Shown here: piece after piece, positions 8,933 to 64,000 of the stretch
Numbering within the stretch: position 1 is the stretch's first letter
Layout of the letters: every line of letters begins with the position of its first letter
Assembly: GCF_964355755.1 (NCBI RefSeq)
Contig: NC_092673.1
Location: 11,256,948-11,320,947 of the forward strand
Source: Antedon mediterranea
Lineage: Eukaryota > Animalia > Echinodermata
Direction of reading: 5' to 3'
Length of the DNA stretch: 64,000 bases
Translations under genes and position numbers: made by a program
The notes under the pieces: generated by a model
Databases searched by the model: none
Seen by the model: the letters and a program-made list of their open reading frames with translations, nothing else
Told to the model about the DNA's origin: nothing

Positions 8933-8998
8933 AAACGATATATACTCTATATCATTTTACGTATACAGTATATTTCACCATAAAGTTAAAGAAAAATA

Positions 8999-9791: not shown

Positions 9792-9863
9792 GGTTTCGTT
9801 CGGGCTCGAACCAGGTACCTTCTGCGTGTTAAGCAAACGTGATAACCACTACGCCAAGAAGCC
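9792..9863 (-). pseudogene. tRNA-Val(AAC)-derived copy 4 (duplicate of copy 2)
   Basis: Near-identical to 9282-9352 with extra substitutions; T-run downstream. Confidence 0.75.
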
Positions 9864-32877: not shown

Positions 32878-33504
32878 GTTCATGGCCTAGCTCTCTGTAT
32901 TCGCGTCAATATCATGTTACATCCAGGGATAAAAAATGCGGTTTTTTTTTTCAGGTGAAAGTCGGCTATTAGAAATTTAGACACGTGTCGCCCGACGTAC
33001 CAGGCTAAAAAATACCATGAATCGGATCGTAAATAGTATGCTTAGACCTATATATTTTTACTTTACCGTGTAGGCCTAGGCCTATATATATTTTTATTTT
33101 ACGGTAGGCCTAGGATACAGTATAATACATGATTATTTTAATAAATATAATTATAACATAACACTAGATTTAATTCGTCACTATGACGAATTATAGGTTA
33201 TATGCATTGATTTAAATAAAGATAATTGATTTTTAAAAGATATATTGATTGATTGATTTTCTCAGAATCTTTAATTATTTATAATATATGATAGGACCTT
33301 GCTAACGCGAACACCATAGCCGCTATCACAATCCGATCAAAGATCCATATGCGTATAATGTCAAAAACCACATTTGTTGTTACATAATAATAAAGACATA
33401 AGTTAATTTTTATCTAGATTTCATTATAAATCATGTGTATAATCTATACACTAAGAAATAAATTTGAACAAGCAATACGGATAATAAAAAAAAAATCTTA
33501 TTTC

Positions 33505-33578
33505 GTTTCCCAAGGTGAGACTCGATCTCGGTACCTTGAATGCCATAGACACGAGCACAGACCATCGAGCCATACACA
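33505..33578 (-). other. tRNA-derived Pol III module in family B (also at ~48531-48604 and ~49948-50020)
   Basis: gtgtaTGGCTCGATGGtctgtgctcgtgtctatggcattcaaggtaccgAGATCGAGTCTcaccttggga followed by a long T-run. Homologous to the family C module. Confidence 0.6.
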
Positions 33579-34350
33579 ACTGACTAAACGTTGTAGAAAA
33601 ATTCCTCCGTGTATTTACTATGCAGTAACCACTTTGGTGCAAATAGATTATTACATACCGCAATGAATTATAATTTTTTACTATGATGACATCTTTAAAA
33701 TGTAAACAAATGAAGCACTGTCAAACTATATACTTTTAACTTTAATATATGAACTTTTGAAGGAAGAAAGTTAATGTTAAGTTTGTTATTTTGGCCTAAG
33801 AAAATGTCATAATTTGTTTGATTGTCGAAATTATTTTTTTTAAATTTAATATGCAATTAATGATGACTTAATCAACTTTAGAAAGATTGTAAAACAGAAA
33901 TCGGGCAAAAAGAGTGCGCATTAACGTTTAACGCGCAGTGCGCATGCAAAAATCTGCGCACTCATGGCAATTTTTTAAACGCTTAAAATTGCCTGAAACG
34001 TACTCTAATTACAGCGAAAATAAATTTTGACAATTTTGAAAATTTTAAGCGCGCGTACGCAAGCGTTATATGCGCTACGCACGTAATTGTATTGCCATAT
34101 GATGAAATGTGACCTGAAATTTATGAGTACCAAATTTTGTTTAATTGTGATTCATGCTTGTGAAGATATGATTACAAACGTGATTTCGTAAAATCGCGCG
34201 TAGACCGCGTAATTTTTGATTGCTCATCGTGAAAATATAACCACATCGATTCCTGGCCATAAGGAATATACTCTGAAAACTTGACTTAGCTAGATGAAAC
34301 TGATGCCAAGATAATTCACGGACAAAATAGTGCTAAGGAAAGAATAAATA

Positions 34351-35942
34351 AACTAGACATGAAACTCGTCACTTTGACGAGTTAGTTATCCGCTCGACAA
34401 ACGCCACGTGCACGTCATACGTTAGAATATTGCACACAGAAAAATATTAAGGCATTATGACCTGAACTGAAGAATATGATATGTTGTTATTTCTGAATTC
34501 TGTTATTTTGTGTCATATACATAGTATACACAGTACAATCTGTATACATATCACAAACAGTGTAAAATAGGTGAAATTACGGGACCCGTATTTTATTGTA
34601 ATTTTTGACATCTTGACGGTTTCTAAATGAAATGCAAAAGTAGAAATTTCAGAATGAAATTATCTCAGCAACAACATATTAACGTGTAGAAGAAATTTGA
34701 ATACGTGAAATATTGATGCGCGCTCTTTTAAATGTAATGAAATATAACGCAAAAGATGAAAATACGACTTTTTGTATTTAACTGGCCATATGATGACGTC
34801 ACAACATTCGATTGGCAAAATTTTCACATGATTTTGTATCTACAATACAATAGCTTCCTGAAAACGTTTTAATCGTGATTATCACATTTTATTCTTACGA
34901 GCTATAACAGATTAAAATTTACTGTAAAGATGAAATTAATGACCAATGTAATTTAAATTTTTAGGCATGATGACGTTAAAAAAATTAAACAAAATTTAAT
35001 TCATGCAAAAGATAGTTGATTGTCCTAGAATATATTAAAATCGGGGTGAAAATGGACAACGAATAAGTGGAGATGCGCTCTATTAAATGTGATGAGCTAT
35101 GACGAAAGAGACAAAAATCCTATATTTTATATTCGCGTGGCCATACGATGATGGCACAATGTCCGGTTAGCCATATTAATGCATGATTCGATATCTACAA
35201 CTCATCAACTTCCAGAATATGTAATTAAAAAAAAGTTCTCCATGTAGTTTAGAATCTATGACTGTTTAAAAATAGGCATAATTTTGACGAATTTTTGAAC
35301 TTTTTCACCAGAAACGCGTGCAAATTATTTAATTCGACGTGCTCGTATGACGTAATTTTAAGTCGAAATTGTTTAAAAGTTGGTAACATTACTATAAAAG
35401 GCTGAAAAAACATAAATCACGCGAAAAAAATATGTTTTTAACGCTACGTGTGAACCGCGTGCGTAAAAAGTTTCGCGCGCGTGGGAATTTTTGACATGCT
35501 CAAAATGACATGAAACGCATAGAAAGTTGATTAGAAGTTGATTTTTCGCACTATAAAATTTTAAACGCGCGTGCGCGCGTAACTTTTTGTGAAACATGCT
35601 ATTTTTAATCCATAGAAAGTTTGCGCTTGATGTGACTTAAATTTTCACAAAGTGTCAAAACAAAATTATGTTTCGTTTTTAGTCTATGATCAATCATTGA
35701 AATTCATAAAATCGCGCGTAAGTCACGTTGCGCAACTCTGACGTCATTCAAAAATAGGAGGTGCACAAGTTCACGTAAATGTCGATATGTTGACAAAGTT
35801 ACGATATGTTCTGTTTACACGTTTTAGAGAAACGCGACGCACAAAAATGACAGAAGGAAAGAAGTATAATACAGAAAAAAAAAAAAAATATGATGAAACA
35901 GGACGATTACAAGGAGTTATCCGCTACTAAGCGGATAACTAA
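34351..35942 (-). mobile_element. Helentron/HINE family A' nested in B0
   Basis: Near-identical to 24247-25829; inserted after gtgctaaggaaagaataaata. Confidence 0.87.
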
Positions 35943-37962
35943 TAAATAAAGATTCTGACAGAATCAAGAGGTTATATGCATGATAATGCATAAACCTAAT
36001 AACATACGAGCCCAAAAAGCTATTAAACGAATTAACAATCGTGTTAACAACCCGTTGTAACAACAATGACCGGACTGCTAATAACCCGTTATTTTGAGTC
36101 ATAGGATTTCACGCAACATACCATAACAAGGACTGTTAATAACGCGTTGGAATCATCGTTACGCAACACTGAACGGCATGCCCGGTCTCCCGTTAATTAC
36201 GCGTTAAACAATGGAGTGATCACAACAGCATAGTAGCTAGTAAAGAAGGAGGGCTTGATATGCCTCAATGAACACGCCCAACCCCATGTAAATTAGCTTG
36301 CATATAACGGTAAATCGTTAAACTAGTTGCGTTACAACAAGTTAAACGGAGGAAAAACATTTGGGCACGCTCCCTAAAAGTCATAGAAATTGACGTAAAT
36401 GACGGACCGTTGAAAAAATCTGCATTTAAAAAAAATTCCACCTAATTATATATGCGTAGACAAATTTGACACCTTTCCTGTCTTTTAAATGCGGGTCATT
36501 CCATGCCAACTCAACAAATGGGATGGCTGGGTACCCCTCAGATTTCCTTGAAACTCACATAATATGCAACTATATGTCTCACGAACACACCAAAAATTTC
36601 AGTTGCCAACTCCAAGTCGTTTAAAAGTTATGGCCATTTGAAAATGTGTCGTCGAATTTTTGGTCTTAATAAATTACCTTTTTGTAAAGTTGCATTTTTA
36701 ATTAGCCATATTTTAAAAACTATTAAAGCTAATAAGCTGAATATTGATACACTGACATAATTTTGGTCATAGATTAAAAATATGAAAAAAAAATTGCTGT
36801 ATCTCAATTAATTTTCGAGATTTTGATCCCTAGAAACCCCAATTTATTTTGTCGCAAACAGCTTCGGCAATTTTTACCCCATATTTAAATATGAAAATAC
36901 ATTTTTAAACTGATTTTTTCCTATACATTATTAATATATGGTGTTAAATGTATCAATACAAAAAAGTTCATCATTTTAAAAATTTATCCTAGGGGTACAC
37001 TGCGCGTCAAAAACTCACTCGGGACACAAAATACAAAAAATCATTACTTTTTCATTTTGAACTTTGACCTTGTGGGCAATAATTCCCAAAATTGAAACTC
37101 ATCATATAAGTTCATCAATGCATGATTCAGCTATGTACCAAATACCAGTTTGGTGTCTTTATTCCTTCATGTCTAAATATGACTATTAAATTTGTTTATT
37201 TTTGTTTTGCATTTTGTGTATATTTATAGCAATTTCAATGTAAAATGTGCTTTTCGGAAGATCATAATTTCAGTATTTTATCTCCTAGTGCTATCAATAC
37301 ATTCAATTTTAGACAATTTTAGTAGACTGCTGTGTAGTCATGGATACATGGTACATTCAAATCAAAACTATTTTTCAAGTGACCTACAGTATACAATGTA
37401 ACAATGTAAGGGTTTCATATCATTGAACTAATTCAGATTGCTGAAATTAATTTATAATAACAATACAATAAATTAATAATAATAATAATAATAATATAAT
37501 ATATTTTTTATTTCCCTGCTCCAATTGAAGTTGTAAAGCATAGAAACACATTTACTTTAATAAGGTGATTCATAAACTACAAATCCCCCATAACCCTGCT
37601 CATTACCATACTATTGCAGTTGTGTGCTTTTTTACTTGCTTTGAATATTGTCAATATACAACGTTGTTAATTGAATAACAACATTTTAGGCAGTGAAAAA
37701 AGTTTCATAAATCCAGCCCCTGAGCTATTTGTACTATTTAAAGTAGTGTCTAGTAAAAATTAAGTCTGGGCTATAGTAACTATTTTAGCCAAACTAGACC
37801 ATGGTCTAGCATATTATTTCAACTTTTTACAGCTCTACAATAAGTCATTGAGCTATCGCTGGATGCTCAGTGTACCATGTGCACCAGGTTACTACCGTAA
37901 GTATTGACCATTCAGAAACAGCCTTTCTATAGAGGGCGCATAAAAAACTGAGAGCTCTATGT

Positions 37963-38678
37963 GGGGTATTGCTAAACACTGCAAACCCCGCAAACCTCCA
38001 AAAAAACATAGCAAACCCCACCGAACCAACATAAAAGTGATTGAATCATGTAGTGTACAACCCACTGTGTATATTATTGTTTAAAAAAAATTAAATTTCT
38101 ACTGTTAACAACTTATTTTTGGGGTAAAACAACATTTTTTTGGTCAAAAATGATTGCTAAACCCCGCAAACCTCCAAAAAACTATAGCAAACCCCACCGA
38201 ACCAACATAAAAGTGATTAAATAATGTACTGTACGACCCAGTGGGTATATAAATTATTAAATTTCTACTGTTAACTACTTTTTGGGGGATAAAACATCAT
38301 TTTTTGGTTAAAAATTAGCAATCATTTTTGACCAAAAAATGATGTTTTACCCCAAAAATAAGTAGTTAACAGTAGAAATTTAATATATTTTTTTTACATG
38401 GATATACCTAGTGAGTTGTACACTACATGATTCAATCACTTTTATGTTGGTTCAGTGGGGTTTGCTATATTTTTTTGGAGGTTTGCAGGGTTTAACAATC
38501 ATTTTTTACCAAAAAAATGATGTTTCACCCCAAAAATAATTAGTTAACAGTAAAAATGTAATATTTTTTTACATGGATTTACCCAGTGGGTTGTACACTA
38601 CATGATTCAATCACTTTTATGTTGGTTCGATGGGGTTTGCTATGTTTTTTGGAGGTTTGCGGGGTTTAGCAATACCCC
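37963..38678. mobile_element. Foldback-type palindromic element
   Basis: ggggtattgctaaac ... gtttagcaatacccc. Each arm is two ~180-bp units, with almost no spacer; tctatgt recurs on both flanks. Confidence 0.8.
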
Positions 38679-38777
38679 TCTAGATACCCCTCTATGTGTG
38701 CATAGTTTAAATAGTTTTAGTTTTAAATATTTATTTCGAGTATATATAATATATTATTAAAATTCATGGAAGCTTAC

Positions 38778-38822
38778 CAAATACAATTCTCCATATGGCC
38801 GGATGTGGTCTTGTAAATGGTC
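38778..38822 (-). CDS. PTDSS1: PTDSS1 coding exon 3 (45 nt)
   Basis: ttttcAG acceptor and GTAAGC donor. Reads (G)PFTRPHPAIWRIVF(G), the conserved GPFTRPHPxxWR motif. Confidence 0.93.
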
Positions 38823-39254
38823 CTGAAAAAAAAAATGAAAATAACTAATTAATTTATTAACATTCATAAAATGTTTCTATTTTGTCCCATTGTTTTTGTC
38901 GGTATACATATTACATTTGTTTATAAAAATTTAATATTTAAAATAAATAATACTCACACACAGTTTACAATCTTTTGAATTACAGCTTGTAAACATTATA
39001 CTGTTGTTATTTCTATGACAGAACCATAACCATTTACCTTTTATGAACCTATAAATTATATAGGTCCATCTATATATAAATTATGGTTAATTCTGACATA
39101 GGCGAGCACAATGCAAAAACTTCGGTATAAATCTCCACCTTGGATACCTACCTTATCTATACAGATGTACCGCGAAACGTAGATTTTATAACATTAGTTA
39201 TTAAATTATTAATAATTATTAGGATGGTAGTTTTTTGTTTAGTTTAGAAACAAA

Positions 39255-40141
39255 CCGCGCGCGCATGTGAAGGTACAGTACTTAAAAAATAAAAATTATT
39301 CTGCAAATTAATAAAGATCAAATTAAATATACGCCATAAAGAATCGGAATATATTGTGGGGAATAGTATTATAAAATTACATAGGGAGATTTGATGATAA
39401 GACATTTTGTTTAAAATCGAGTGACATCCCGATAGCTGAGTTTTATTGAGTAAGCTGGCAGGAATAACTGTAGGCTATCTGTGTCCCGTTAGGACCAAGA
39501 TGTCTGCCCATGTTGCAAGCCGTAATGTCTTCTTTCTTGGGCCGAAACGGCCCACTCTGTCACGGCAGTTAGTTTCAAAAGATGTTTAAATTAAATAATG
39601 TATTAATAATTATTAGGATGGTATTTATTTGAATAAACGCCTCTCCAATAAAACATCACTTTGAATAATAATCCCCCCCTCCAACCCAACTATCTAATAA
39701 ACGTCCATCCACATTTATAATAACACAATTATACTATTTGTAGTAGAATTCATCGCACTGTTATCTACAATTTACCAAGCATTTGTTATTCTTTTTTACC
39801 ACTTTTCATATCTATTAGAGGATTTCATTTGATTATAAATGTTACCATATTATTAAAACTAAAAAATTTAACATCCCCTTGAATAAGCACCTCCCTCAAA
39901 TGAACTCCGCCTCCCCACCTCCGCCTTATAAGGGCGCTACCAAACAATAAACACTATACTTTAAAATGTTGTTAATCATTTAAGACACTGTGAAACAAGA
40001 GTAGTTTAGTTGGGTTACGAATGTCAAGCATTTTCAATAATGGTAACCGACAGAAAACGTACAAGGAGAACATTATCATTCCGAGAACCATTGTCTACAC
40101 TTCTTAGAGGGGGAGCAAGCGAAGCGAGCTCACCCTCTAGT
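39255..40141 (+). mobile_element. Helitron/Helentron-like element (family E, copy 2)
   Basis: Reverse complement of 6526-7325. Ends gagggggagcaagcgaagcgagctcaccctCTAGt, ~45 bp from the exon 2 donor. Confidence 0.7.
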
Positions 40142-40184
40142 GTAAGTAATTAAGTAAGTAATATTTATTGCTTGTACTACTTAC

Positions 40185-40279
40185 CATTAGGAAATGTTAA
40201 GAGACTGATTAGCAGAAAGAAAAATGCCACACAACAAAGTCCATTCCAAATGTTCTGTTCTGAATTTTCTTCACTGGTT
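40185..40279 (-). CDS. PTDSS1: PTDSS1 coding exon 2 (95 nt)
   Basis: tatacAG acceptor and GTAAGT donor. Reads (R)TSEENSEQNIWNGLCCVAFFFLLISLLTFPN(G), versus human [26 protein letters not shown]. Phase fits exons 1 and 3. Not in the ORF track. Confidence 0.92.
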
Positions 40280-41169
40280 CTGTATAAAACAGTAAATCAA
40301 TTGTTATTGATGTTATATCATACATAGGCTACACGTATTGTACCTTACATACTTAAGTCCAAGGTACAGCCATGAATTTTAAATATAATATAGATCTGGT
40401 TAAATGAACATTAACAAATATGTGTAACAGAAATTATGACCAACACAAATTTTCACTTAAAATTGCCAAAAACTACTACAGTATAAAATCTAGATATACT
40501 TTTTTCAGTAGTTTAACCAACTAGATGGTTCTCTAATAGTAATACTCAAATTCAAATGTACGCAATGCTTAGTTGGGTCTATAATATAGAAATAAATAGA
40601 CTAAAATTAGCACCCTGAGAATTACTTCTGAAAGAGAAACTAGTCAAACATTAGGGTTGTTAATTTATATATAGATGCAGGATTTAAACAATTTTAAATT
40701 GTGAGGACTTTAATACGCAAATCAAAACAAAATTAATGAACAGGAAAATAATGTAGATGAAGTAGGTATATGAATATGGTATAATCCTTAAACGAATGTA
40801 AATGTTATGCATGATTTAAAATAGGGAAATTGCGCAATTTAATGACATTTCATTCTTTTACCTGCATTTTTTATATATGCATACAGATTTCAATGACCTT
40901 TGGTTTTATCAAATACTGAAAATACCATGCGTAATTTGAATAGTGATTCATTTTGACACAAAAATTTCAAATTGCATTTGCTCAAATCACATAACAGAAA
41001 TACATTCAAATTTTCTGCGCAATTTGAATATCGCAGAAAATCCTCATCATTTTTTAAATTACATACATTCATACAAATCACACATAAAAGAAATAAATTT
41101 AATTAATTAAAATAATATAAAATCTAATAAACTCAGTTCATTCGGTTTTGTAAATTTACTGCACCAAGC

Positions 41170-41622
41170 TGATAATAATAATTGTCAGGAAAGGTCGGTA
41201 TGACAGTGCAACTAACGCCATGCGATCTTTGCACTGGCTTCCAATGTCTTATAGATGTCAATTCAAAATAGTGTGTCTTGTATGGCGTTCGCTTAAAGGC
41301 TCCACTCCAAGTTACCCGAGAGATATTCTTACTGTGCGGAATGTTTCTCGCAGTACTCGTTCAAGCACCAGCATTGTTAACCTGACAATCCCACGAACTA
41401 AACGAAAGACATTTGCTGACCGTTCGTTTGCCGTAGCAGGACCCACAATTTGGAACAGATTACCAAGTCACATTAAACACTTAGACGACTATAATCAGTT
41501 TAAAAAACATTTAAAAGCACTATATTTCAAACAATGTTATGATACCGATTGATGTGAAGCACAGCTGATTATAATTAAATGTTGTATAAATGTGCGCTAT
41601 ACAAGAAATAATAATAATAATT
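41170..41622 (+). mobile_element. L2-group LINE, 3' fragment
   Basis: LHWLPMSYRCQFKI..ADRSFAVAGPTIWNRLP..FKKHLK, then gcgctataca and (AAT)n. Confidence 0.85.
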
Positions 41623-41672
41623 TCTTTTGAAATAAGAGGACAACTATAAGAGACTTCAACAATTTCAACGGT

Positions 41673-41792
41673 ATGGAAGTTACTATCTCCAGCAAGCAGC
41701 GACCACGTTTCAGTCCTGCATCCCCGCACATTATGGAAGTTACCATCTCCAGCAAGCAGCGACCACGTGTCAGTCCTGCATCCCCGCACATG
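41673..41792. repeat. 60-bp tandem duplication
   Basis: atggaagttacyatctccagcaagcagcgaccacgtktcagtcctgcatccccgcacat, two copies. Confidence 0.9.
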
Positions 41793-42639
41793 ATGATTGT
41801 GGTTTTTTTTCCCTCAAAAACAGATTATTTCAGTCTGTATTACAATATATGTAATGTTATATCTTCAAAAGATTTTTAGAAAACCATGTGACTATTTAGA
41901 ATTAGGTTATCATTTTTAATAAAGGATTTATGATGATGATGATTTGCACATTTGTAGAATTTCATTTGCACATTTACGTAAAATATAATGGACTCATAAA
42001 ATAGATTTTGCGATGCACCTGTGACGTCACAGCAAGCGCTGGCGGCGATATCCTTAATCTCCCTACATGTACATACAGGTTTTTATATGGCGCCTTGTAA
42101 ATGTTATACAATTTTTAAGCAAATTACTCGACTCCATACTCTACATAGGCATAGTTGGACAGAAAGATGGCTGGTGTACACTCCATGTGACTGGGTAGTT
42201 GGGTTTGGAGGCTATAATTCTAGGCCTCTACTGCAGTTTCGCACCACACTGTTATATCTTCGATTTCTCATCTAAATTTTTTCCGACAGTCACACCCACA
42301 TCATACAATTTTGGGCCATTATGTAACATGTTCACATGATTTAGCCACCATTAAAGTATCCTTTTCACAATAAAAAATGCCTTGAATACTTTGATCTAAC
42401 TGGGGCCATTTCAGAATCAGAAAATTGCCAGAAATCAATGTATGTTTTATTTTCCGTCTTTATTTTAAACTATAGAGAGTGGTTTTAAAGAACCATATGC
42501 TGTACATATATCAAAACGGCGAGGAGATGAGTTCGTACATATAACATTTTATTTTTGTTAAACAATGCTGTTCACAATCATAAACCATATAGGCACATTT
42601 CAATTTATGGTGCGAGTTTTGAAAATTATTGACATTAAT

Positions 42640-43148
42640 TAATTAATTAATTACTGTACGACAAATTTTATTTTTTTAAGCTTTCTAAGAATCGCGCGCG
42701 CAAAAACGTGTTTTTGCGCAGTAATTTTTTAAAACACGCAAACGGCCTAATTCATGCTCTAAATTGATCAAAACTTAATTTTGAGCTTTTTAAATTTTTA
42801 ACGCGCGATTTCACACCCTACGTGCGTGTGCGTTTTTATTTGCTAATATTTTTACTCTTGATCTGAAGTTCAATTAATTTCATTAATTTGTGATAATGAA
42901 TTATGGAGATATGATTGATAATGTGATTTCACAAAATGGCGTATAAATGACGTCACGGTTAAGTGATCACGCTGAAAAGCTTATTAGGATTAAGTTACAG
43001 TATTTGAAAGATATTGTGAAATTTTGGTAATCATTGACTTTAAACTTTTTGAGATAATTGTTACACAAAATAGTGTACAGAAACAATAATAACTTTAAAG
43101 ATTTCATACAACAATAGGTGATCATTTTATTCTAAATGATCACCTAAT
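42640..43148 (-). mobile_element. Helentron-like terminal fragment
   Basis: Ends taggtgatcattt-tattct-aaatgatcaccta in an AAT run; body resembles the distal part of families A/B/C. Confidence 0.6.
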
Positions 43149-43548
43149 AATAATAATCAATCGGGAGAAAAATGGCAAAGGGTTTCCTACTTTCTAGGAT
43201 TTTTTATCAGATAATCTATATTGTTTTGACAACACTTGTAACATGACCACAGTCCTGATTTTGTCATTTTTCCTCTAACTGTAATATTATTAATAATAAT
43301 AATTTATTGGAAACTTACTTTTACAACAGTGGTACACTTCGATTATAAAGGTGCATTAAAATATTAATAATTATTAATGAAATATTAATTTAACCTCTAT
43401 TATATTACGCCAGTTGGAAAAACTGCCTTTCAAAATTAAAAATAAATATTTCTTTTTTCTTTATAGTTTCTACATTTTGGGGAAAATAAAGCATACATTC
43501 TGGCAATTAATTGTTAAAATATAAGATGGCAAATATTTTGCAGTCTAG

Positions 43549-44021
43549 GGGTGGATTGCTATAAAACAGTCTTAACTGATGGTCTTAACTCCCCGATTAA
43601 AGCCGGCTTTATCAGATAGACGGTCTTACTAAAGCCACCCCTGTTAGACTATTGCTATAAACAGTTTTAGATAAGACCGTGTAAAGTAACAAATTGAGGG
43701 CGTACTTTGCACGTAAAATACCAAATAAGGTAATGTTCGTCACACTTGTTCAATTCACAATCATAACAGTACTCTATCAGTAAATCTATTCTAGGCCTAA
43801 AATAATATTTTTTTTAAATGATAAATAATATGTAAAAGCAACAAAAAGAGAGGTTTCAGACTGTTTTTTAAGATTCCTTCGAGTAGGCTTTAATTTTAAA
43901 GACCGCTTACAGGTTAGACCGCGGTATAGCAATGGTCTATAACAAAGACTACTTGCTACGTCACGAATTATAGTCGGCTAAGCGCTAAGACCATTTATAG
44001 ACCGCTTATAGCAATCCGCCC
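43549..44021. mobile_element. MITE (Harbinger-like)
   Basis: TIRs gggtggattgctataa / ttatagcaatccgccc. Confidence 0.65.
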
Positions 44022-44059
44022 AAGTATGTTGACAGCAGAGAGATGTAATAAATCAACGG

Positions 44060-44393
44060 ATGTGCTCCAGCCTACATATGTGACATCATTACTCCGTCAA
44101 CCAACTCTTCGCTTCGTTCATCCAGCAGACTTCTTCTTAAACCTGGACCCCGTTCCAGAACTCGGTTTTACGGTGATCGTGCTTTCGCTGTCGCAGCCCC
44201 AAAACTCTGGAACACTCTACCCCTCGAAATACGCTCATCAAAATCTGTTATCACATTTAAAACTAAACTCAAAACTCATCTCTTCAGAGAAGCATAATCG
44301 CACGCTACTACTTGCACAGATCTTGGAAACACAGCGCTTTGAAACCTTTGTCTCTTGCGCTTTATAAATGTTATTTATTATTATTATTATTAA
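44060..44393 (+). mobile_element. L2-group LINE, 3' fragment
   Basis: YGDRAFAVAAPKLWNTLPLEIRSSKSVITFKTKLKTHLFREA, then gcgctttataaat and (ATT)n. Confidence 0.85.
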
Positions 44394-44431
44394 TAAGCGG
44401 AAGGCTAGTGGGCGTACTCCAGACTGAAAAG

Positions 44432-44793
44432 TGATTCCAACAGAAGGGGGAACCAACAAGATGGCGGCCATAAATGTGTTCAAAAACATTATTTAATATA
44501 AAAAATAACAGGTAATACATTAAGACCACATAAATTACAACACATATTCTATCAAATTAAATATATTGTTAATCGCAATGGAATGAATAATTTCTTGGTA
44601 ATAAATTTAGCATTTTTATATACGAGGATCATATAGAATGCGTACGCGTTTATACACTTAACACGATGCATATCGTTCTTTGCTCAACACAGGCGCATAC
44701 TGTAGCAGCAGTGCGTATTGATTGCGCGCGTAGGGCATGTCTGATTGGTCCATTGCAGCCGCCATCTTGCTGGTTCCCTCTCCATGGAGAATC
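44432..44793. mobile_element. MITE with YY1-like motifs in its inverted repeats
   Basis: gggaaccaacaagatggcggc / gccgccatcttgctggttccc. Confidence 0.55.
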
Positions 44794-45114
44794 ATCATTT
44801 GAACTGCAATAACATTATCGGCTATTATATCACTGGTTGACTGAAGTGACAGCGAGTTCAATTCAGTCATCGTTTAAAATGTTTAATAGAAAAGTATTGT
44901 TATTTAAAAAAATTTACTTCATAAGTGGTCCAATCGTAATAGACATGTTACATAATAATATTATGCTTTGAGTGTGAAAATTTTTAATTTAGGTGAGAAA
45001 TCGAAGATATAACAGTGTGGTGCGAAACTGTAGTAGCGGCCCTCTTATGCTACTGTATTTTGCCTAGACTAGAGGGCCTAGCCTAGGGCCAGGCCTCTAC
45101 AGTACCGTACGTAC

Positions 45115-45287
45115 CGAGTAAATGCGAAAAACACAGTTGCGAAAAAAGCACCAAATAACAGAGTAAGCGTATGAGGCTTGTAAAAAAAGTCGAGAGTTAT
45201 ATCATCCACTTCTTGTTCATTTATAAGACGAAAATGATCACTAATCTCTGATGATGTTCGTCTGTGTCCCGTCCTAGATCGACCCAT
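45115..45287 (-). CDS. PTDSS1: Phosphatidylserine synthase 1, coding exon 1
   Basis: Translates [58 protein letters not shown], matching the PTDSS1 N-terminus ([27 protein letters not shown]...FAFTR). Followed by a GTACGT donor in phase 2. Confidence 0.93.
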
Positions 45288-46532
45288 CCTGTTTTTTTTT
45301 TTAAAGAACGTTAATTAAACGTATAACACAAGAATCTCGTGTTCGTCCGATGCCGCCCATTCAACAAAGCCAGCTCTCACAATATCGCGATCGTACAGTA
45401 ACGGTTTCTGCCATGCTGTAGTACAGGGTTAAAACCACAGAGGTGTTATAAAGCGAAGGCTAGAGGGCGTACTCCAGTTTGAATAGTCAGAGCCATAACA
45501 TAAAGAGTTGCGACTTTTAATTAATTCCTATGTAGAGTAGGCCTATATGGGCAGTGAGTCCTTTGTTTTTAAAATGTATAACGTTCAAAAAGGCTTTAAC
45601 TATCGAATTTAATATCAAAATAATCAATTTGTTTAAAGGTTTTTGTTAAAATAATAATAACATTATAAAATTACTGCAAACATGATTTAAAAAATATCTT
45701 TAAAAACAGCGCAATAAGTCCCATTTGACTGTCAATCTAGACCGATTTTATAATACTGAATTCGCTGTCATATAATCATTGAATTATTATTAAAACAGTC
45801 CATATAATAGAAAAGTTTTTGTTTGTAATACTAATAGGATACAATTTGTTCACACTTGAAGAATCTAGGCTTGATGAAGTGACCCCCGCCCCCAGACTTG
45901 ACCTTAGCTATAAAATAAACTAAAGTGACAGAAATTGAGTCTGTTTAGTATAATAAAGTAATATTATTTAGACATCATTTTTATTTAAATTATTTAATAA
46001 GCACATCATCTTTTACAGATTTAGTATTTTTTATTTTTCAATTGCACAATTATGGCATATCAAAGTATGAATTCTTGTTGTATTTTACTTCAAAAATACA
46101 AAAGTTATTCACTTCTGTTTCAAAAAAATAATATTTATTCACGTATAAAAAGAGAAAAGAAACGTTTAATTACAACCCCAAAACCACTGTCTGACAGACA
46201 ATTTAATTATTTTTTGCTTTAAAAATTACATTTTTTGATGTAAATAATTGTTTATTTCGTGAATAACTATTATGTGACAATAAAATGACACATTCAAAAA
46301 CAAATTTGAAATAAAAAATATTTTTCAGGGGACAATATCCCTTTAAAACTGTTATGTCAACAAGCGAGCAGCGTTTTTTGTAAGAAATATTTCTTGTTTA
46401 TTATATATACCGTAAATCTTCTAATTGTGACCCTGGGTTAGTAATCTTTGATTTTTTTTTTAGGGTGGGTTACTATTGTAACCCCAGAAGTTAAGGTCAC
46501 GCTATAGAGGGCGTTCATAGAATGTAATATTA

Positions 46533-48183
46533 GCTCTGCTAACTTTTCTGGCTGTTTACTTTCTTTTTGATTTAGCTTTTCGCTTTTTTTTTGTATCTCC
46601 ATTGAGATCCAGCAACTGATACCAACAGCATTGTCATTTTTTCAGTAATTTGCCTTTGGATTTATATATATATATAAAAAAAGCGAAAAGCTAAATCAAA
46701 ACGATAAAGTAAACCGCCAGAAAAGTTAGCAGAGTTTCGGGCAACACTAGCCCTTCATGTGCAAGTGAGGGAATTTGGATAAAGTCATAGCATAAGAGTT
46801 GGCAAGTGCTGCCTGGGTGGACAGGAATAAAAGAAATATAACAATCAGCGCCATGAGCAATGAATGTTGGAATGGTGCTATATAAATCGAACGATTGATT
46901 GATTGATTGAAACAGCGTGTTAAATGGTAGGTGGAGACTGAATAAGAGTAGAAAACAAAGAAGGTAGGCCCCTATAGCTTGGTAGATATATAAACAATTT
47001 TGGAATGGAACTAAAAAAAGCTAAAATGGTGGTTAATATTGAAACTTAAATTTTGGTAGTCCCTGGTCAATGGAATAATTTTACCGATCTGGGAGTATTG
47101 TTCCTAATGTTAAGTCCAAAAGGTTTTGTGGGTTTAAGTAGTAATTCCCAGTGGTTTTCTTTGCCTTTGCGAGTTTTGTCGCTCCATTTGACATCGTGGT
47201 CTATTGCAATAACTCTGAAATTTGCAATAGAGTGACCAGCTGAATTAAAATGTTCGGCTACAGGTTCATCAAGCTTTAATGTTTCGATAGCTGATCTGTG
47301 TTGTGTCATTCTCATACGGAGAGTGTTTTTTGTTTCTCCGACGTACTGTTTGCCACAAATATTACAGTATATGAGATAAATGACGTTTTTGGTTAGACAA
47401 TTAATTGATTGTCTTATCCGAAAAATGCGGCCAGTTTGGTTACTCTCAATTTTTTCAGTAGAATCAACCAATGAACAAGTTTTGCAAGATTTTCCGCAAA
47501 GGTGACTGCCCACATTTTGGCTGTCATGAGAGTTAATTTCACTCTTAAATTTGGATCTGACTAATATGTCACGAAGGTTGGAAGGTCTACGAAATGCAAT
47601 AATGGGTGGTTCCGGAAAAACCGCCCTGAGACGTTCTGTGAACTGTAGAATGGGCATATGTTTCTCAATAATAGCCCGTAATGGAGGCAACCTAGGGTGA
47701 TAGGTTGTGACCAATGGCACTCTGGTCGAATTTTTTGGCTGACGTGGTTTGTACGTCAGTGTTTGACATCGAGGAATATCTTTTGCTTTCTTTATAGCAG
47801 TTTCGATATATTCCTTCTTGTAATTTCTATTCCGGAGATGTCCGGTTAGTTCTTCGGTACGATTCTGAAAATCTAAATCTGAAGAACAGATACGTCTGAT
47901 ACGTAATGCTTGACTGTACGGTATGTTTTTAGTACAGTGTCGGGGGTGACAACTGCTAGGGAGCAGGTACATATTTTTATCCGTGGGTTTACGGAATAGG
48001 TCAGTTTTGAGTGTACCATTTTTTATGGTCACTATAGTGTCCAAAAAAATCAACGCTACTAGTGGAATTGGTAGCTGTAAATTTTATAGTTGGGTGGACT
48101 AAATTAATATTGAGAAGAAAAGATTCCAAATTATCTTCACCATGGGTCCAGATCATGAAGATGTCGTCAATGTATCTAAACCA
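46533..48183 (-). mobile_element. Penelope-like element (Neptune-type), 3' portion: RT C-terminus, GIY-YIG endonuclease and 3' region
   Basis: WFRYIDDIFMIWTHG, (frameshift) FLDT..TDLFRKPTD..YL..SCHP..KNIPYSQALRIRRICS, a CGKSCKTC linker, and NVIYLIYCNICGKQYVGET..R..QH. Inverted terminal segment at 46533-46590 versus 46676-46734. Confidence 0.93.
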
Positions 48184-51016
48184 AACTAGATTTAATTCGT
48201 CACTATGACGAATTATAGGTTATATGCATTGATAATTAAAATAAAGATAATTTATTTTTAAAAGATATTTTGATTCATTGATTTTCTCAGATTCTTTAAA
48301 TAATATATAATATATGATAGGACCTTGCTAACGCGAATACAATAGCCGGTATCACAATCCGATCAAAGATCCCTCTGCGTATAATGTCATAAACCACATT
48401 TGCTGTTACATAATAATAAAGACATAAGTTATTTTTTATCTAGATTTCATTATAAATCATGTGTATAATATATACACTAAGAAATAAATTTGAACAAACA
48501 ATACGGATAATAAAAAAAAAAATTTATTTCGTTTCCCAAGGTGAGACTCGATCTCGGTACCTTGAGTGCCATAGACACGAGCACACACCACCGAGCCATA
48601 CACAACTGACTAAAAATCGTAGAAAAATTCCTCCGTGTATTTACTATGCAGTAACCACTTTGGTGCAGATAGATTATTACATACCGCAATGAATTATAAT
48701 TTTTTACTATGATGACATCTCTAAAAATGTACAAAAATGATGCACTGTCAAACTATATACTTTTAACTTTAATATATGAACTTTTGAAGGAAGAAAGTTA
48801 ATGTTAAGTTTGTTATTTTGGCCTAAGAAAATGTCATAATTTGTTTGATTGTCGAAATGAATTTTTTTTAATTTAATATGAAATTAATTATGGCTTAATC
48901 AACTTTTGTTCCCTTAGTTTAATAATAAATCATACATAAGATACATAAACTTCAAGAAAATTAAATAAAAAATATGTGTTCCCGAGCATTCTGACGATCT
49001 ATATTAATTTTAAAATTTAGCATATTTTCACCATTTTGTTAACTTACACGTGCGTAGCCTGTCACTTTTGACGTGCTCGTATAAGGCAATTACGCGTTGA
49101 AAAGTGAATAAAATATGATGATATTATTAAAGAAAGGTTGTACAACCGAAATCGGACAAAAAGAGTGCGCATTAACGTATAACGCGCAGTGCGCGTGCAA
49201 AAATCTGCGCACTCATGGCAATTTTTTAAACGCTTAAAATTGCCTGAAACGTACTCTAATTTCATCGAAAATAAATTTTGACAATTTTGAACATTTTAAG
49301 CGCGCGTACGCAAGCGTTATATGCGCTACGCACGTAATTGTATTGCCATATGATGAAATATGACCTGAAATTTATGAGTACCAAATTTTGTTTAATTGTG
49401 ATTCATGCTTGTGAAGATATGATTACAAACGTGATTTCGTAAAATCGCGCGTAGACCGCGTAATTTTTGATTACGCATCGTGAAAATATAACCACATCGA
49501 TTCCTGGCCATAAGGAATATCCTCTGAAAAATTGACTTAGATAGATGAAACTGATATCAAGATAATTCACGGACAAAATAGTGCTAAGGAAAGAATAAAT
49601 AAACTAGATTTAATTCGTCACTATGACGAATTATAGGTTATATGCATTGATTTAAATAAAGATAATTGATTTTTAAAAGATATATTGATTGATTGATTTT
49701 CTCAGAATCTTTAATTATTTATAATATATGATAGGACCTTGCTAACGCGAACACCATAGCCGGTATCACAATCCGATCAAAGATCCATATGCGTATAATG
49801 TCATAAACCACATTTGTTGTTACATAATAATAAAGACATAAGTTAATTTTTATCTAGATTTCATTATAAATCATGTGTATAATCTATACACTAAGAAATA
49901 AATTTGAACAAACAATACGGATAATAAAAAAAAAAAATCTTATTTCGTTTCCCAAGGTGAGACTCGATCTCGGTACCTTGAATGCCATAGACACGAGCAC
50001 AGACCACCGAGCCGTACACAACTGACTAAAAGTTGTAGAAAAATTCCTCCGTGTATTTACTATGCAGTAACCACTTTGATGCAAATAGATTATTACATAC
50101 CGAAATGAATTATAATTTTTTACTATGATGACATCTTTAAAATGTATACAAATGATGCACTGTCAAACTACATACTTTTAACTTTAATATATGAATTTTT
50201 GAAGGAAGAAAGTTAATGTTAAGTTTGTTATTTTGGCCTAAGAAAATGTCATAATTTGTTTGATTGTCGAAATTATGTTTTTTTAATTTAATATGCAATT
50301 AATGATGACTTAATCAACTTTTGTTCTCTTAATTTGATAATAAATCATACATATGATACATACACTTCAAGAAAATGAAATAAAAAATAGGTGTTCCCCT
50401 GCATTCTGACGATATATATTAATTTTAAAATTTAGCATATTTTCACCATTTTGTTAACTTATACGTGCGTAGCCCGTCACTTTTGACGTGCTCGTATAAC
50501 GCAATTTCGAGTTGAAACCTGAATCAAATATGATGATATTATTAAAGAAAGGTTATACAACAGTAATCGGACACAAACAGTGTGCATTAACGTTTGATGC
50601 GCAGTGCGCGTGCAAAAATCTGCGCACTCATGGCAATTTTTTAAACGCCTAAAATTGCCTGAAACGTACTCTAATTTCATCGAAAATAAATTCTGACAAT
50701 TTTCAACATTTTAAGCGCGCGTACGCATGCGTTATATGCGCTACGCACGTAATTGTATTGCCATATTATGAAATATGACCTGAAATTTATGAGTACCAAA
50801 TTTTGTTTAATTGTGATTCATGCTTGTGAAGATATGATTACAAACGTGATTTCGTAAAATCGCGCGTAGACCGCGTAATTTTTGATTACGCATCGTGAAA
50901 ATATAACCACATCGATTCCTGGCCATAAGGAATATACTCTGAAAACTTGACTTAGCTAGATAAAACTGATGCCAAGATAATGCATGGACAAAATAGTGCT
51001 AAGGAAAGAATAAATA

Positions 51017-52637
51017 AACTAGAACTTAAACTCGTCACTTGAGGACGAGTTTGGTTATCCGCCAGCAACAAAGCGTATCTTGCGTATTCAAGTACTTCCA
51101 AGTTATGACTTTTCCAAAAAAAGTAGGCTATTCAAAATTAAAACTGCCCTCTCAGTGTAATAACCAACTAAACCCTTTTAATTAATTGTTTTCCCGTGAC
51201 GGGACTCGAACCCGGTACCTCTGATACCAAAGTCGGTTGCATTACACATCGAGCCATATGACCACCTGCTGACGAAAATCCGAAGAAAGAGTCCTCGTTC
51301 ATTCGGTATGTCGTGAACCCCCTCGATGCAAGTTGATTATTACATATCAAACTTAAATCATAAATTTTACTATGATGAAATCTTCAAAAATTTTAAACGC
51401 TGATATTTTATGAAAGTACATACTTTCAAGTTTGATATATTAACATGTAAAGAAAAAAGATAAATGTTATGTTTATTGTTTTGCTCTTTGAATAAGTTTA
51501 TGTTTGTTTGATGATAAATATTTCAAAAATTATATTTAATATGCAAATAATGTAGCCATCAAACACGTTTTAGCATTCAACACTATAATAAATCAGACCT
51601 ATGATTCATACACTGCAAGTAATTAAAATAAAAAATGGGGGTAACCTTGCATTCTGATGAACTGTGTCATTTTTAAAAGTAGACATATTTTGGAACATTT
51701 TCACAATTTGTTGACGTTTTCGTGCGCAACCTGTCATGTTTAACGTGCTCGTAGAACGCCATTTCAAGTTGAAAAGTGAATAAAATAACGTAAAATTGTT
51801 AACAGAAGATTTAAAAACACAAATCGTGTAAAAGAAATGCTCATACCTGTTCCCTGCGCCGTGCGCGCGTAAAAATGTGCGCACCAGTGGCAATTTTTTA
51901 AACGCTTAAAATGACCTGAATCGTGCTCTAATTTAATCAGAAATTGATTTGAAGCATTTTAAAATTTCAAACGCCATTTACGCGCGCACTTTCTAATGTT
52001 ACAAATTGCGATAGCGTTAAAAAAGTTAACTATTGATGTGAAGCAAACGTGGCTGAAAATGACGTTAAAAAATATTCATTTGTTTCGAAGTTATAATCAA
52101 TTTAAGATTTTCAGAAAATCACGCGTAACTTACGCTAAGCGGCTCTGACATCGTCAAAAAGCTTGGCTGGACAACTTCAGTAAAATGTCTATATGTTGAA
52201 CAAGTTACAAAATGTTATGTTAACGCGTTACAGAGAAACAGCGTGCACAAATTAGGAGCATTTTAAAATTTCAAACGCAGTTTACGCGCAGACTTTCTAG
52301 TGTTCAAAAATTTGCTGAAGAGCGAAAAAGTTAGCCATTGATGTGAAGAAAACGTGGCTGAAAATTTCGTTAAAAAATATTTATCGGTTTCGAAGTTATG
52401 ACCGATTTAAGATTTTCAGAAAATCGCGCGTAACTTACGCTACGCGGATCTGACATTGTCAAAAAGCTTCGCAGTACATCTTCAGTTAATTGTCTATATG
52501 TTGACCAAGTTACAAAATGTTATGTTAACACGTTCAAGAGAAAACGCGTACACAAAATCTGAGAAAGAAAGAAGAATAATAAAAAAAAAAAGTAACACTA
52601 CAATAACAAAGGTTATCCGCTTGAGGCGGATAACCAA
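51017..52637 (-). mobile_element. Helentron family C copy C1
   Basis: aaCTAG, hairpin aaactcgtc-acttgag-gacgagttt, sub-TIR ttggttatccgc, far end ggttatccgc-ttgag-gcggataaccaa. Confidence 0.85.
51192..51263 (-). other. tRNA-derived Pol III module in family C (also at 59167-59238)
   Basis: ggtcataTGGCTCGATGTGtaatgcaaccgactttggtatcagaggtaccgGGTTCGAGTCCcgtcacggga: A-box-like, perfect B box, and T-stem-like pairing. Confidence 0.7.
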
Positions 52638-52704
52638 TAAATAAATAAATAAATAAAGATTTTGACAGAATCAAGAGGTTATATGCATATCATGCATATA
52701 ACCT

Positions 52705-54274
52705 AACTAGACATGTAACTCGTCACTTTGACGAGTTTGGTTATCCGCCGCGCAAGTGGTGCAACATTAACATTAAGGGGATAGGTTGAGGACAAAAGGA
52801 AGTGTTCACGTTGGCATTATGACCTGAACTGAAGAATATGATATGTTGTTATTGCTGAATTTTATTATTTAAATTCATATATAGTATATACACAGTATAT
52901 AATCTGTATCCATATCACATACAGTGTAGAATAGGTGAAATTACGGGACCCGCTATTTATTGCAATTTTTAACATGTTGACGGTTTTAAAATGAAACGCG
53001 AAAGTAGCAATTCCGAAAGGAAATTATCTCAGCAACAACGTATTAGCGTGTAGAAGAAATTTGAATACGTGAAATATTGATGCGCGCTCTTTTAAATGTA
53101 ATGAATTATGACGCAAAAGATGAAAATACGACCTTTTTTATTTAACTGGCCATATGATGACGTCACAACATCCGATTTGCAACATTTTTACATAATTTCG
53201 TATCTACAATCCAATAGCTTCCAGAAAAAATTTTAATCGTGATTATCACATTTTATTCTTACGAGCTATAACAGATTAAAATTTACTGTAAAGATGAAAT
53301 TAATGCCACACGTGATTTAAATTTTTAGGCATGATGACGTTAAAAAAATTAAAATATTTTTAACTCATGCGAAAGATACTTGATTGACCTAGACAAAATC
53401 AAAATCGGGGTGAAAATGGAAAACGGATAAGTGGAGATGCGCTCTATTCAATGTGATGAGCTATGACGAAAGATACAAAAATCCTAAATTTTATATTCGC
53501 ATGGCCATACGATGACGTCATAATGTCCGGTTAGCCATATTAATACCTGATCCGATATCTACAACTCATCTACTTCCAGAATATGCCATCCACAAAAAGT
53601 TGACCGTCTAGTTTAGAAATTACGACTGTTTAAAAAAAGGCATATTTTAAACGAATTTTTTAACCTTTTCATAAAAAACGCGCGCAAATTGTCCAATTCG
53701 ACGTGCTCGTATGACGTATCTTTAAGTCGAAATTGTTTAAAATTTGGTAAAATTACTAGAAAAGGCTGGAAAAATATAAATCACGCGAAAAAAGTACGTT
53801 TTCAATACTACGTGCGCACCGCACACGTAAAAATGTGCGCACGCGTGGGAATTTTTGACATGCTTAAAACGACATGAAACGCGTAGAAAGTTGATTATAA
53901 ATTAATTTTGCGCATTTTGAAATTTTAAATGCGCGTGCGCGCGTAACTTTGTGTAAAACACGCAATTTTTTTTCAACAGAAAGTTAGCGCATGATATAAA
54001 TTAAACTTTTGCAAAGTTTCAAGTTGAAATGTTATTTGGTTGTCGAGCTATGTTAAATACGACAAAATCGTTAAATCGCGCGTAAGTCACGTTGCGCAAT
54101 TGTAAACGTCATGAAAAGCTTCGCTTGACGACGTTACGTAAATGTCAATATGTTAAGATAGTTACCGAAATGTTATGTTTGCGAGTTTTAGAGAAAAGCG
54201 TTACACAAAAATCATACAGAATGATTTCGTACAATCACAAGAGGTTATCCTGCAACTTCGTTGCGGATAACCAA
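52705..54274 (-). mobile_element. Helentron family A copy A1
   Basis: aactagacatgtaactcgtcactttgacgagtttggttatccgc ... ggttatcctgcaacttcgttgcggataaccaa. Confidence 0.87.
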
Positions 54275-55797
54275 CTAGACATGTAACTCGTCACTTTGAC
54301 GAGTTTGGTAATCCGCCGCGCAAGTGGTGCAACATTAACATTAAGGGGATAGGTTGAGGACAAAAGGAAGTGTTCACGTTGGCATTATGACCTGAACTGA
54401 AGAATATGATATGTTGTTATTGCTGAATTTTATCTATATATAAATTCATATATAGTATACACAGTATAATCTGTATCCATATCACATACAGTGTAGAATA
54501 TGTGAACTTACGGGACCCGCTATTTATTGCAATTTTTAACATGTTGACGGTTTTAAAATGAAACGGGAAGGTAGCAATTCCGAAAGGAAATTATCTCAGC
54601 CACAACGTATTAGCGTGTAGAAGAAATTTGAATACGTGAAATATTGATGCGCGCTCTTTTAAATGTAATGAATTATGACGCAAAAGATGAAAATACGACC
54701 TTTTTTATTTAACTGGCCATATGATGACGTCACAACATCCGATTGGCAACATTTTTACATAATTTCGTATCTACAATCCAATAGCTTTCAGAAAAAGTTT
54801 TAATCGTGATTATCAAATTTTATTCTTACGAGCTATAACAGATTAAAATTTACTGTAAAGATGAAATTGATGCCACACGTGATTTAAATTTTTAGGCATG
54901 ATGACGTCAAAAAAATTAAAATATTTTTAACTCATGCGAAAGATAGTTGATTGACCTATACAATATCAAAATCGGGGTGAAAATGGAAAACGGATAAGTG
55001 GAGATGCGCTCTATTCAATGTGATGAGCTATGACGAAAGATACAAAAATCCTAAATTTTATATTCGCGTGGCCATACGATGACGTCACAATGTCCGGTTA
55101 GCCATATTAATACCTGATCCGATATCTACAACTCATCTACTTCTAGAAAATGTCATCCACAAAAATTTGACCGTCTAGTTTAGAAATTACGACTGTTTAA
55201 AAAAAGTCATATTTTAAACGAATTTTTTAACCTTTTCATAAAAAACGCGCGCAAATTGGCCAATTCGACGTGCTCGTATGACGTATCTTTAAGTCAAAAT
55301 TGTTTAAAATTTGGTAAAATTACTAGAAAAGGCTGAAAAAACATAAATCACGCGAAAAAATTACGTTTTCAATTCTACGTGCGCACCGCACACGTAAAAA
55401 TGTGCGCACGCCTGGGAATTTTTGACATGCTTAAAACGACATGAAACGCGTAGAAAGTTGATTATAAATTAATTTTGCGCATTTTGAAATTTTAAATGCG
55501 CGTGCACGCGTAACTTTGTGTATAACACGCAATTTTTTTTCAACAGAAAGTTAGCGCATGATATAAATTAAACTTTTGCAAAGTTTCAAGTTGAAATGGT
55601 ATTTGGTTGTCGAGCTATGTTAAATACGACAAAATCGTTAAATCGCGCGTAAGTCACGTTGCGCAATTGTAAACGTCATGAAAAGCTTCGCTTGACGACG
55701 TTACGTAAATGTCAATATGTTAAGATAGTTACCAAAATGTTATGTTTGCGAGTTTTGGAGAAAAGCGTTACACAAAAATCATACAGAAAGAAAGAAG

Positions 55798-62221: not shown

Positions 62222-62286
62222 AAATAAAAAGATGATGATTTCGTACAATCACAAGAGGTTATCCTGCAACTTCGTTGCGGATAACC

Positions 62287-63890: not shown

Positions 63891-63944
63891 TAAAGATTTT
63901 GACAGAATCAAGAGGTTATATGCATGATAATGCATATAACCTAA

Positions 63945-64000
63945 CAAGTGGTTTATTTGGTTGGAGGGACAGAAAATTGGCCTCAAATTGTCCCATAAAT
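63945..64000 (-). mobile_element. Same Penelope element, RT segment upstream of the insertion
   Basis: Reads FMGQFEANFLSLQPNKPLV and joins in frame to WFRYIDD at 48183. Confidence 0.88.

What the first reader, a model, noticed from the sequence alone, without database searches (positions are those of the whole stretch)
34330..51020. The same site in family B was hit three times by three different families
Seen: the sequence after gtgctaaggaaagaataaata(a) is interrupted by A' at 34351 (in B0), by B at 49602 (in B1) and by C at 51017 (in B2). The inserted elements differ and B0 lies ~14 kb from the others, so these look like independent events at one position. Inference: a site-specific hotspot, not just AT preference.
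Basis: seen in the sequence. Interest (0 to 1): 0.75.

Follow-up and report, generated by a model that had tools for sequence, protein, structure and literature searches.

The report
Rolling-circle transposons share a landing tract
Thirteen small non-coding transposons with the end structure of the rolling-circle Helentron type lie in this window, ten of them inside or against one another, and every nested insertion falls in the T-rich tract just behind an earlier copy's front hairpin, which likely acts as a reusable landing zone rather than a strict target sequence.

Summary
In detail: three distinct B copies (94.8-96.6% identical) are broken at the same base by A', B and C. All are non-autonomous Helentron-type (HINE/HLE2) elements on the minus strand, and the site is the (TTTA)n tract 54-69 nt behind B's 5' hairpin. 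It is not special to B. A copy of A is broken in the matching tract, and contigs of one public sample show five further junction types in that tract of C/A/A'-type hosts. It is not a strict target either: 3 of 13 copies sit in unrelated DNA. Plain TT preference is excluded (P about 1e-6). A steep preference for T-rich tracts explains part of it; fitted models leave a 21-33-fold excess, but on 6-7 sites, with a zone drawn after the fact. No target duplication is made, so the site survives and was likely re-hit, giving two four-element head-to-tail arrays. T-rich preference and self-insertion near the 5' end are published in outline. This scan's unreviewed notes report the same habit twice elsewhere in this genome and in several other genomes.

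The parts
33164..35999 (-). B0: HINE-type element (own length 1246 nt, internal deletion), interrupted at 34352/35943, 57 nt from its 5' end; sits in a short (ATAAC)n run of host DNA
34353..35942 (-). A'2: complete element in B0's tract
   Evidence: empty form seen in contigs
34330..34352 (-). 3' flank of the target in B0 (pyrimidine run plus 2.5 TTTA units); tract had 4 units
48186..63944 (-). B1: outermost host (own length 1472 nt), interrupted at 49603/63891, 54 nt from its 5' end, by the array B2-A1-A2-A6; itself inserted in a Penelope-like reverse transcriptase frame
49581..49603 (-). 3' flank of the target in B1; tract had 3 units
49604..52706 (-). B2 (own length 1484 nt), interrupted at 51018/52638, 69 nt from its 5' end
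50996..51018 (-). 3' flank of the target in B2; tract had 7 units
51019..52637 (-). C1: complete element in B2's tract, 99.6% identical to C2; its own tract (52579-52586) is the place where contigs show nested element ends
52707..54274 (-). A1: complete element, tract deleted, not interrupted
54275..62288 (-). A2 (own length 1592 nt), interrupted at 55799/62222, 67 nt from its 5' end, by the array A3-A4-C2-A5
55800..57402 (-). A3, complete
57403..58993 (-). A4, complete, weaker tract variant
58994..60612 (-). C2, complete, between A4 and A5
60613..62221 (-). A5, complete
62289..63890 (-). A6, complete, weaker tract variant
24249..25829 (-). A'1: solitary copy in unrelated AT-rich DNA (shows that the tract is not required)

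Best explanation
Three distinct B copies, and one A copy, are each interrupted in the T-rich tract 54-69 nt behind their 5' hairpin by complete Helentron-type elements facing the same way, and these are likely separate rolling-circle insertions into a hot zone that every such element carries. Shown: the end anatomy (5'-TT, subterminal repeat folded into a hairpin, tract; 3' subterminal repeat, hairpin, CTAG), no target duplication, and the same insertion base counted from the 3' flank although the B tracts have 3, 4 and 7 units. Inferred: an autonomous partner's RepHel (perhaps with its endonuclease) nicks before a T and judges the target mainly by the T/pyrimidine-rich DNA on the 3' side. Because nothing is duplicated or lost, that 3' flank survives and can be hit again, which would give the two head-to-tail arrays of four. 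Inferred, least secure: nearness to the resident's 5' hairpin, which the enzyme is expected to bind, adds roughly a twenty-fold boost on top of composition.
For: Anatomy: 13 of 13 read 5'-TT...CTAG-3' followed by T; hairpins fold at both ends in the 4 elements folded; none of the 15 ORFs of 120 aa or more lies inside an element. No duplication: contigs join 34350/34352 to 35941, i.e. empty B tracts; split A2 adds up to the length of intact A3's tract; the frame of the Penelope-like RT on the two sides of B1 fits a net gain of two T only. Separate hosts: B0/B1/B2 differ at 40-74 sites, with private changes within 50 nt left of the site and in the right pieces; C1/C2 differ at 6 of 1618, fewer than any two hosts. 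Excess: 4 of 4 occupied internal sites lie in the 40-90 nt zone, which holds 189 of 5372 TT steps (P 1.5e-6) and 10 of 40 strong tracts (P 0.002); composition models fitted to 7 or 6 sites leave a 21-33-fold excess (likelihood-ratio p 0.0003-0.005). Register: P 0.036 for three hits at one register. Beyond the window: of 12 joint rows shown (of 20) table 5c, 7 join positions 52579-52586 to an element's CTAG end (5 distinct junctions), 1 joins a B 5' end to one, and 4 are not clean element ends; one search shows a B end in a variant B tract. Published parallels: Helraiser's AT-rich preference is strongest on the 3' flank and it shows no local hopping (PMC4778049, passages); HINEs prefer T-rich targets without target modification (PMC4067079, passages and section 16).
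Against: The zone is also the T-richest part of the elements: 85 of 169 steps with 11 or more A in 15 nt lie in it, so the steepest composition null gives P 0.064-0.076, and the three-feature model gives P 0.029-0.037 for all nested hits in the zone. The zone was drawn after seeing the data, n is 6-7, and the window was picked for its nest. Six copies with strong tracts (A3, A5, C1, C2, A'1, A'2) are unhit here. The contig tables are cut to the best-supported rows (15 of 167 joints and 24 of 1959 loose ends; 12 of 20 and 24 of 166), so single-copy insertions elsewhere would be hidden. The runs are one sample that may be the window's source. The six head-to-tail joints fit insertion at a resident's 5' end, or arrival of a ready-made block, as well as re-use of the 3' flank. 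No autonomous partner was seen (no genome held).
Confidence: 0.6

Rival explanations
1. Composition alone: the enzyme has a steep preference for long T/pyrimidine tracts, the tract behind the 5' hairpin is simply the best one in each element, and the hairpin plays no part.
For: All four hit sites have 11 A in the 15-nt flank, among the top steps of their hosts, and A2's is the top purine step. Per-step P 0.064-0.076 under the steepest thresholds. A1 (tract deleted) and A4/A6 (weaker tract) are unhit. T-rich preference is published (PMC4067079, PMC7492417 passages; PMC4778049).
Against: The three solitary copies sit in flanks with only 7-9 A of 15, so the preference is not that steep. Thirty other strong tracts in the elements and 124 in the other 43.8 kb are unhit. 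C's other strong tracts (51463, 51634) give no element-end joint among the rows shown.
Confidence: 0.25
2. Few events, copied: one or a few composite elements or ready-made arrays were moved as blocks, or B copies exchanged sequence, so that the junctions are not all independent.
For: B copies look mosaic: B2 has no private change in alignment columns 1-400 and B1 none in 1001-1200. The last 33 columns before the site are identical in all three. Some contig junctions have several times the depth of the weakest contigs. Read-through and composite movement are proposed for Helitrons (PMC5148889 section 16; PMC3288121 passages).
Against: The three inserts are different families with both of their own ends intact and exact. 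Hosts carry private changes on both sides of the site. Four junction types in the window and at least six more in contigs cannot come from one event. With about 6% variable columns, 33 invariant ones are unremarkable (about 0.13, my arithmetic).
Confidence: 0.09
3. Strict sequence-specific targeting of the B motif, as site-specific elements do with rDNA or small RNA genes.
For: Same base in three B copies; 5, 3, 3 and 3 contigs in four runs carry non-C element ends at that base, of which two can be the window's own.
Against: 3 of 13 copies lie in unrelated DNA. A and C tracts differ in sequence and are hit over an 8-nt span. A variant B tract is hit 3 letters further on.
Confidence: 0.04
4. 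Assembly artefact from mis-joined repeats.
For: No contig spans the whole nest.
Against: All copies differ from each other. The nesting is balanced to the base. The host RT frame fits across the 15.8-kb insert. Contigs hold the same kinds of junction.
Confidence: 0.02

Closest known systems
HINE / DINE-1, non-autonomous Helentrons (PMC4067079 passages and section 16; PMC2374699 passages; oyster Cg_HINE, PMC7492417 passages)
   Same: 5' subTIR plus inverted repeat, microsatellite behind it, 3' subTIR and stem-loop, no ORF, no target duplication, T-rich targets.
   Different: The passages read do not describe the element's own microsatellite as an insertion hot zone. The tract here is (TTTA)n or TTC-rich, not GTCY. 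Ends read 5'-TT and CTAG-3'.
Helitron2 / HLE2 (PMC3627910 and PMC11417382, passages)
   Same: Asymmetric terminal inverted repeats, hairpins at both ends, 5' T.
   Different: No transposase here to place on the tree. T|T targets fit only under one of the possible boundary conventions.
Self-inserting FoHeli of Fusarium oxysporum (PMC5148889, passages and section 16)
   Same: Self-insertion close to the 5' end (duplicated 5' pieces under 200 bp), tandem insertions.
   Different: There it is inferred from stacked 5' ends. Here whole nests are preserved, across four or more families, at base resolution.
Nested maize Helitrons (PMC3288121, passages) and Helraiser target choice (PMC4778049, passages)
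   Same: Helitrons insert near or into each other; A|T target with the AT-rich preference strongest on the 3' flank.
   Different: Canonical Helitron1 ends; no fixed zone inside the resident element in the passages read.
MINE-1 of Lepidoptera, said to disrupt (GAAA)n microsatellites (Coates et al. 2010; only the title was seen, in the reference list of PMC4067079; paper not held)
   Same: DINE-1-like element tied to a purine/pyrimidine microsatellite.
   Different: Cannot be compared in detail; text not read.

Membership tests
HINE / HLE2 non-autonomous element | 5' subterminal inverted repeat at the very end, pairing with a nearby inverted repeat to form a hairpin | tested here: met
   12-14 bp repeat in all families; hairpins of -11.4 to -13.3 kcal/mol in A4, C1, A'2, B1
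HINE / HLE2 non-autonomous element | 3' subterminal repeat just upstream of a 3' stem-loop | tested here: met
   9-10 bp stems in 13 of 13 ends; folds
HINE / HLE2 non-autonomous element | Short variable microsatellite behind the 5' inverted repeat | tested here: met
   (TTTA)3-7 in B, TTC/TCA runs in A, T-run in C and A'; deleted in A1
HINE / HLE2 non-autonomous element | No coding capacity | tested here: met
   none of 15 ORFs of 120 aa or more lies in an element
HINE / HLE2 non-autonomous element | No target-site duplication | tested here: met
   empty B forms in contigs, A2 versus A3, RT frame around B1
HINE / HLE2 non-autonomous element | Insertion between T and T | tested here: inconclusive
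   13 of 13 are followed by T and begin with TT. If both T belong to the element, 5 of 7 non-tandem targets are A|T, 1 G|T, 1 T|T; if one T sits at each end, 6 of 7 are T|T and B0 is T|G. The boundary cannot be fixed.
HINE / HLE2 non-autonomous element | Autonomous RepHel(-endonuclease) partner with the same ends | not testable with these tools
   no genome held; no such ORF in the window
Strictly site-specific transposon (R2- or Dada-like; definition recalled, from no call) | Nearly all copies at one target sequence | tested here: not met
   3 of 13 in unrelated flanks; unrelated flanks also before element ends in contigs (loose ends before 51017, 51027, 52703)

The most novel reading that the evidence does not exclude
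Helentron transposase homes on resident elements: it is recruited by the resident's 5' hairpin and inserts into the T-rich tract 50-70 nt behind it. The microsatellite that HINEs conserve would then be a self-made, regenerating safe-haven target shared by all families of the lineage, and a route by which satellite-like arrays grow by insertion.
Probability: 0.35. Interest if true: 0.65.

Novelty: new variant of a known kind. Interest (0 to 1): 0.42.

Why it matters
How Helentrons choose targets is untested; Thomas et al. 2014 (section 16) call for biochemistry. This locus gives a sharp prediction: a fixed register set by the 3' flank, and extra use of a tract next to a 5' hairpin. If it holds, it explains why HINEs keep a microsatellite at that position, how they pile up harmlessly, and why such nests get mistaken for satellites. 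If composition alone explains it, it is a tidy but ordinary nest.

Tried and rejected
Sequence look-up in earlier notes found nothing, nor did the look-up near this place. B and C carry a stretch that looked tRNA-derived by eye (recalled box motifs); ARAGORN lists no tRNA there and Rfam gave only 4 chance-level hits in 48100-54400, so it is not claimed. I looked by eye for an older HINE around B0's flanks and found no matching 3' end. Two contig joints enter an element end past its CTAG (34300 to 33171; 50835 to 52721; each seen in one run only) and were not counted as insertions. Searches used right ends of B0 and B1 that were 1 nt short; one search repeats the model with corrected ends and gives nearly the same values (the tract counts were not re-run). 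The order of insertion within the arrays could not be read from A-copy identities (96.4-98.6%). Two papers were not held. Eight literature searches listed no paper whose title or abstract start describes this hot zone; one search returned almost only unrelated papers, most subscription journals are not covered, and no supplements were opened, so absence from print is not shown.

Full report
Observation. Each copy is followed by two A and the CTAG end of an element: A' (34353), B (49604), C (51019). A self-comparison and junction listing (ends corrected) resolve 13 elements of 1.2-1.6 kb: three B, six A, two A', two C. B0 (33164-35999) holds A'2. B1 (48186-63944) holds a row of four: B2, A1, A2, A6. 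B2 holds C1. A2 holds a second row of four: A3, A4, C2, A5. Three copies (A'1, B0, B1) sit in other DNA, four start at an internal site of a host, and six abut another element's end. All 13 face the same way.

What the elements are. On the minus strand all 13 read 5'-TT...CTAG-3' followed by T. The 5' end is a 12-14 bp repeat that folds back on a nearby inverted copy; a T-rich microsatellite follows; the 3' end has the second repeat, a 9-10 bp stem-loop and CTAG. No ORF of 120 aa lies inside. This is the published anatomy of HINE/DINE-1 and Helitron2 elements (passages of PMC4067079, PMC2374699, PMC7492417, PMC3627910, PMC11417382). The families are relatives: A/A' 83%, B/C 68-70% over 370-800 nt, and A, A' and C share the core of the terminal repeat. 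The window is animal-like DNA with retrotransposon and DDE transposase remnants; earlier notes call the genome a feather star (not tested here).

Are the events separate? B0, B1 and B2 differ at 40-74 positions, with private changes within 50 nt left of the site and in the right-hand pieces. C1 and C2 differ at 6 of 1618, so C1 likely arrived after the B copies diverged. Each insert has both of its own ends. Against full independence, the B copies look mosaic along their length, and each row of four could have arrived in one to four steps.

No duplication, fixed register. Contigs of public runs join 34350 or 34352 to 35941, which are empty B tracts of four and five units and one variant. A2's two halves add up to the length of A3's tract. 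B1 interrupts a Penelope-like reverse transcriptase just before its YIDD motif, and the two sides are in frame if the element brings exactly two T (the Penelope label rests on a weak GIY-YIG hit just under Pfam's cut-off and on recall of the motif). The B tracts had 4, 3 and 7 units, yet all three insertions lie 2.5 units from the same side, the side that becomes the insert's 3' flank (P 0.036 if registers were equal; later slippage of the other side could give the same picture). Helraiser's AT-rich preference is strongest on that flank (PMC4778049, passages).

More than AT preference? The zone 40-90 nt from a 5' end holds 189 of 5372 TT steps in the elements, and 4 of 4 occupied internal sites are in it (P 1.5e-6). 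It holds 10 of 40 strong tracts (P 0.002). Counted per step, however, it holds half of the strongest steps (85 of 169; P 0.064). Models fitted to flank composition over all 41,635 candidate steps of the window leave a 26-33-fold excess with 7 sites and 21-26-fold with B2 dropped (p 0.0003-0.005). The solitary copies sit in flanks with only 7-9 A of 15, which argues against a very steep preference. These numbers are soft: small n, a zone drawn after the fact, and a window chosen for its nest.

Beyond the window. One search listed 12 runs; five were laid (X1, X9-X12). X9-X12 are one sample and may be the window's source. In one search (50560-52790), 7 of the 12 rows shown in table 5c (20 in all) join 52579-52586, the tract of C, to an element's CTAG end. 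They make five distinct junctions, three with ends not present in the window; in two the bridging letters resemble A or A' tracts, so the host is likely A or A'. One row joins a B 5' end to such an end, and four are not clean element ends. Of 9 rows in table 5, one repeats a tract junction and eight do not land on an element end. The commonest tract junction has about 5-13% of the depth of C-body contigs in the three runs where it is listed (depth is not a copy number, and one amplified event could give it). At B's own site, 5, 3, 3 and 3 contigs continue into B- or A-type ends; two may be the window's own. One search shows a B end in a variant B tract, three letters further on. Loose ends also show element ends in unrelated flanks. 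Hidden rows mean that rare insertions elsewhere are not excluded.

Mechanism. Most likely an autonomous Helentron's RepHel, with or without its endonuclease, inserts these elements before a T, reading T/pyrimidine-rich DNA on the 3' side (inferred; the enzyme's role in target choice is only hypothesised in PMC4067079 section 16). Every element carries such a tract behind its 5' hairpin. Insertion leaves the 3' flank intact, so the site can be re-used, giving head-to-tail rows. Weak support for re-use: 2 of 4 tract sites carry rows and 0 of 3 solitary copies have a partner (not significant). Insertion at a resident's 5' end would give the same joint. The excess over composition suggests, but does not show, recruitment by the resident's hairpin. 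Local hopping was not seen for Helraiser but is untested for this group.

Comparison and verdict. The elements are new HINE-type families. T-rich targeting, tandem insertion and self-insertion near the 5' end are published in outline (PMC5148889 section 16; PMC3288121 passages). I found no description of a cross-family hot zone in the element's own microsatellite in eight searches, within the limits given under Tried and rejected. Unreviewed notes of this scan describe the same habit on two other pieces of this genome and in several other genomes; they are leads, not evidence, and I had reached this reading before opening them. Verdict: real hotspot, shared by related families, not strictly site-specific; new variant of a known kind; interest 0.42.

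Noticed in passing
window 47067-48185 and 63945-64000 (-): Penelope-like retroelement frame (weak GIY-YIG hit; RT motif YIDD) split by the 15.8-kb nest; it also has a frameshift or stop near 48084-48100.
   Followed up: partly
contigs laid on 52579-52711: At least three further element ends (variants of the CTAG end) that are not in the window: more HINE subfamilies exist in this genome.
   Followed up: no
window 33498-33600, 48524-48620, 49940-50040, 51182-51270: B and C share a stretch that looks tRNA-derived by eye on the minus strand; not called by ARAGORN or, where scanned (48100-54400), by Rfam.
   Followed up: partly
window 33155/36047: Contigs join these positions with 9 other letters between (two runs): B0's flank is likely a low-copy repeat or has an allele without the locus; not a clean empty site.
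   Followed up: no
window 8997-9863 (-): Four tRNA-Val(AAC) genes in a tandem cluster.
   Followed up: no
window 31086-32877 and 29657-30726: Two long inverted-repeat (foldback/MITE-like) elements; the first has 546-bp arms at 98%.
   Followed up: no
window 2252-3328 (-): piggyBac-like DDE_Tnp_1_7 transposase remnant with zinc finger.
   Followed up: no
window 16295 (+) and 8148 (-): Two more CTAG-plus-hairpin ends that may belong to older HINE-like families; partners not sought.
   Followed up: no
window 51953-52556 and 59928-60531: C carries a 305-bp internal tandem duplication, like the central repeats of HINEs.
   Followed up: no
run X1 (organism A): A second coded organism holds A'- and B-like sequence, so these families extend beyond one species label.
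   Followed up: no
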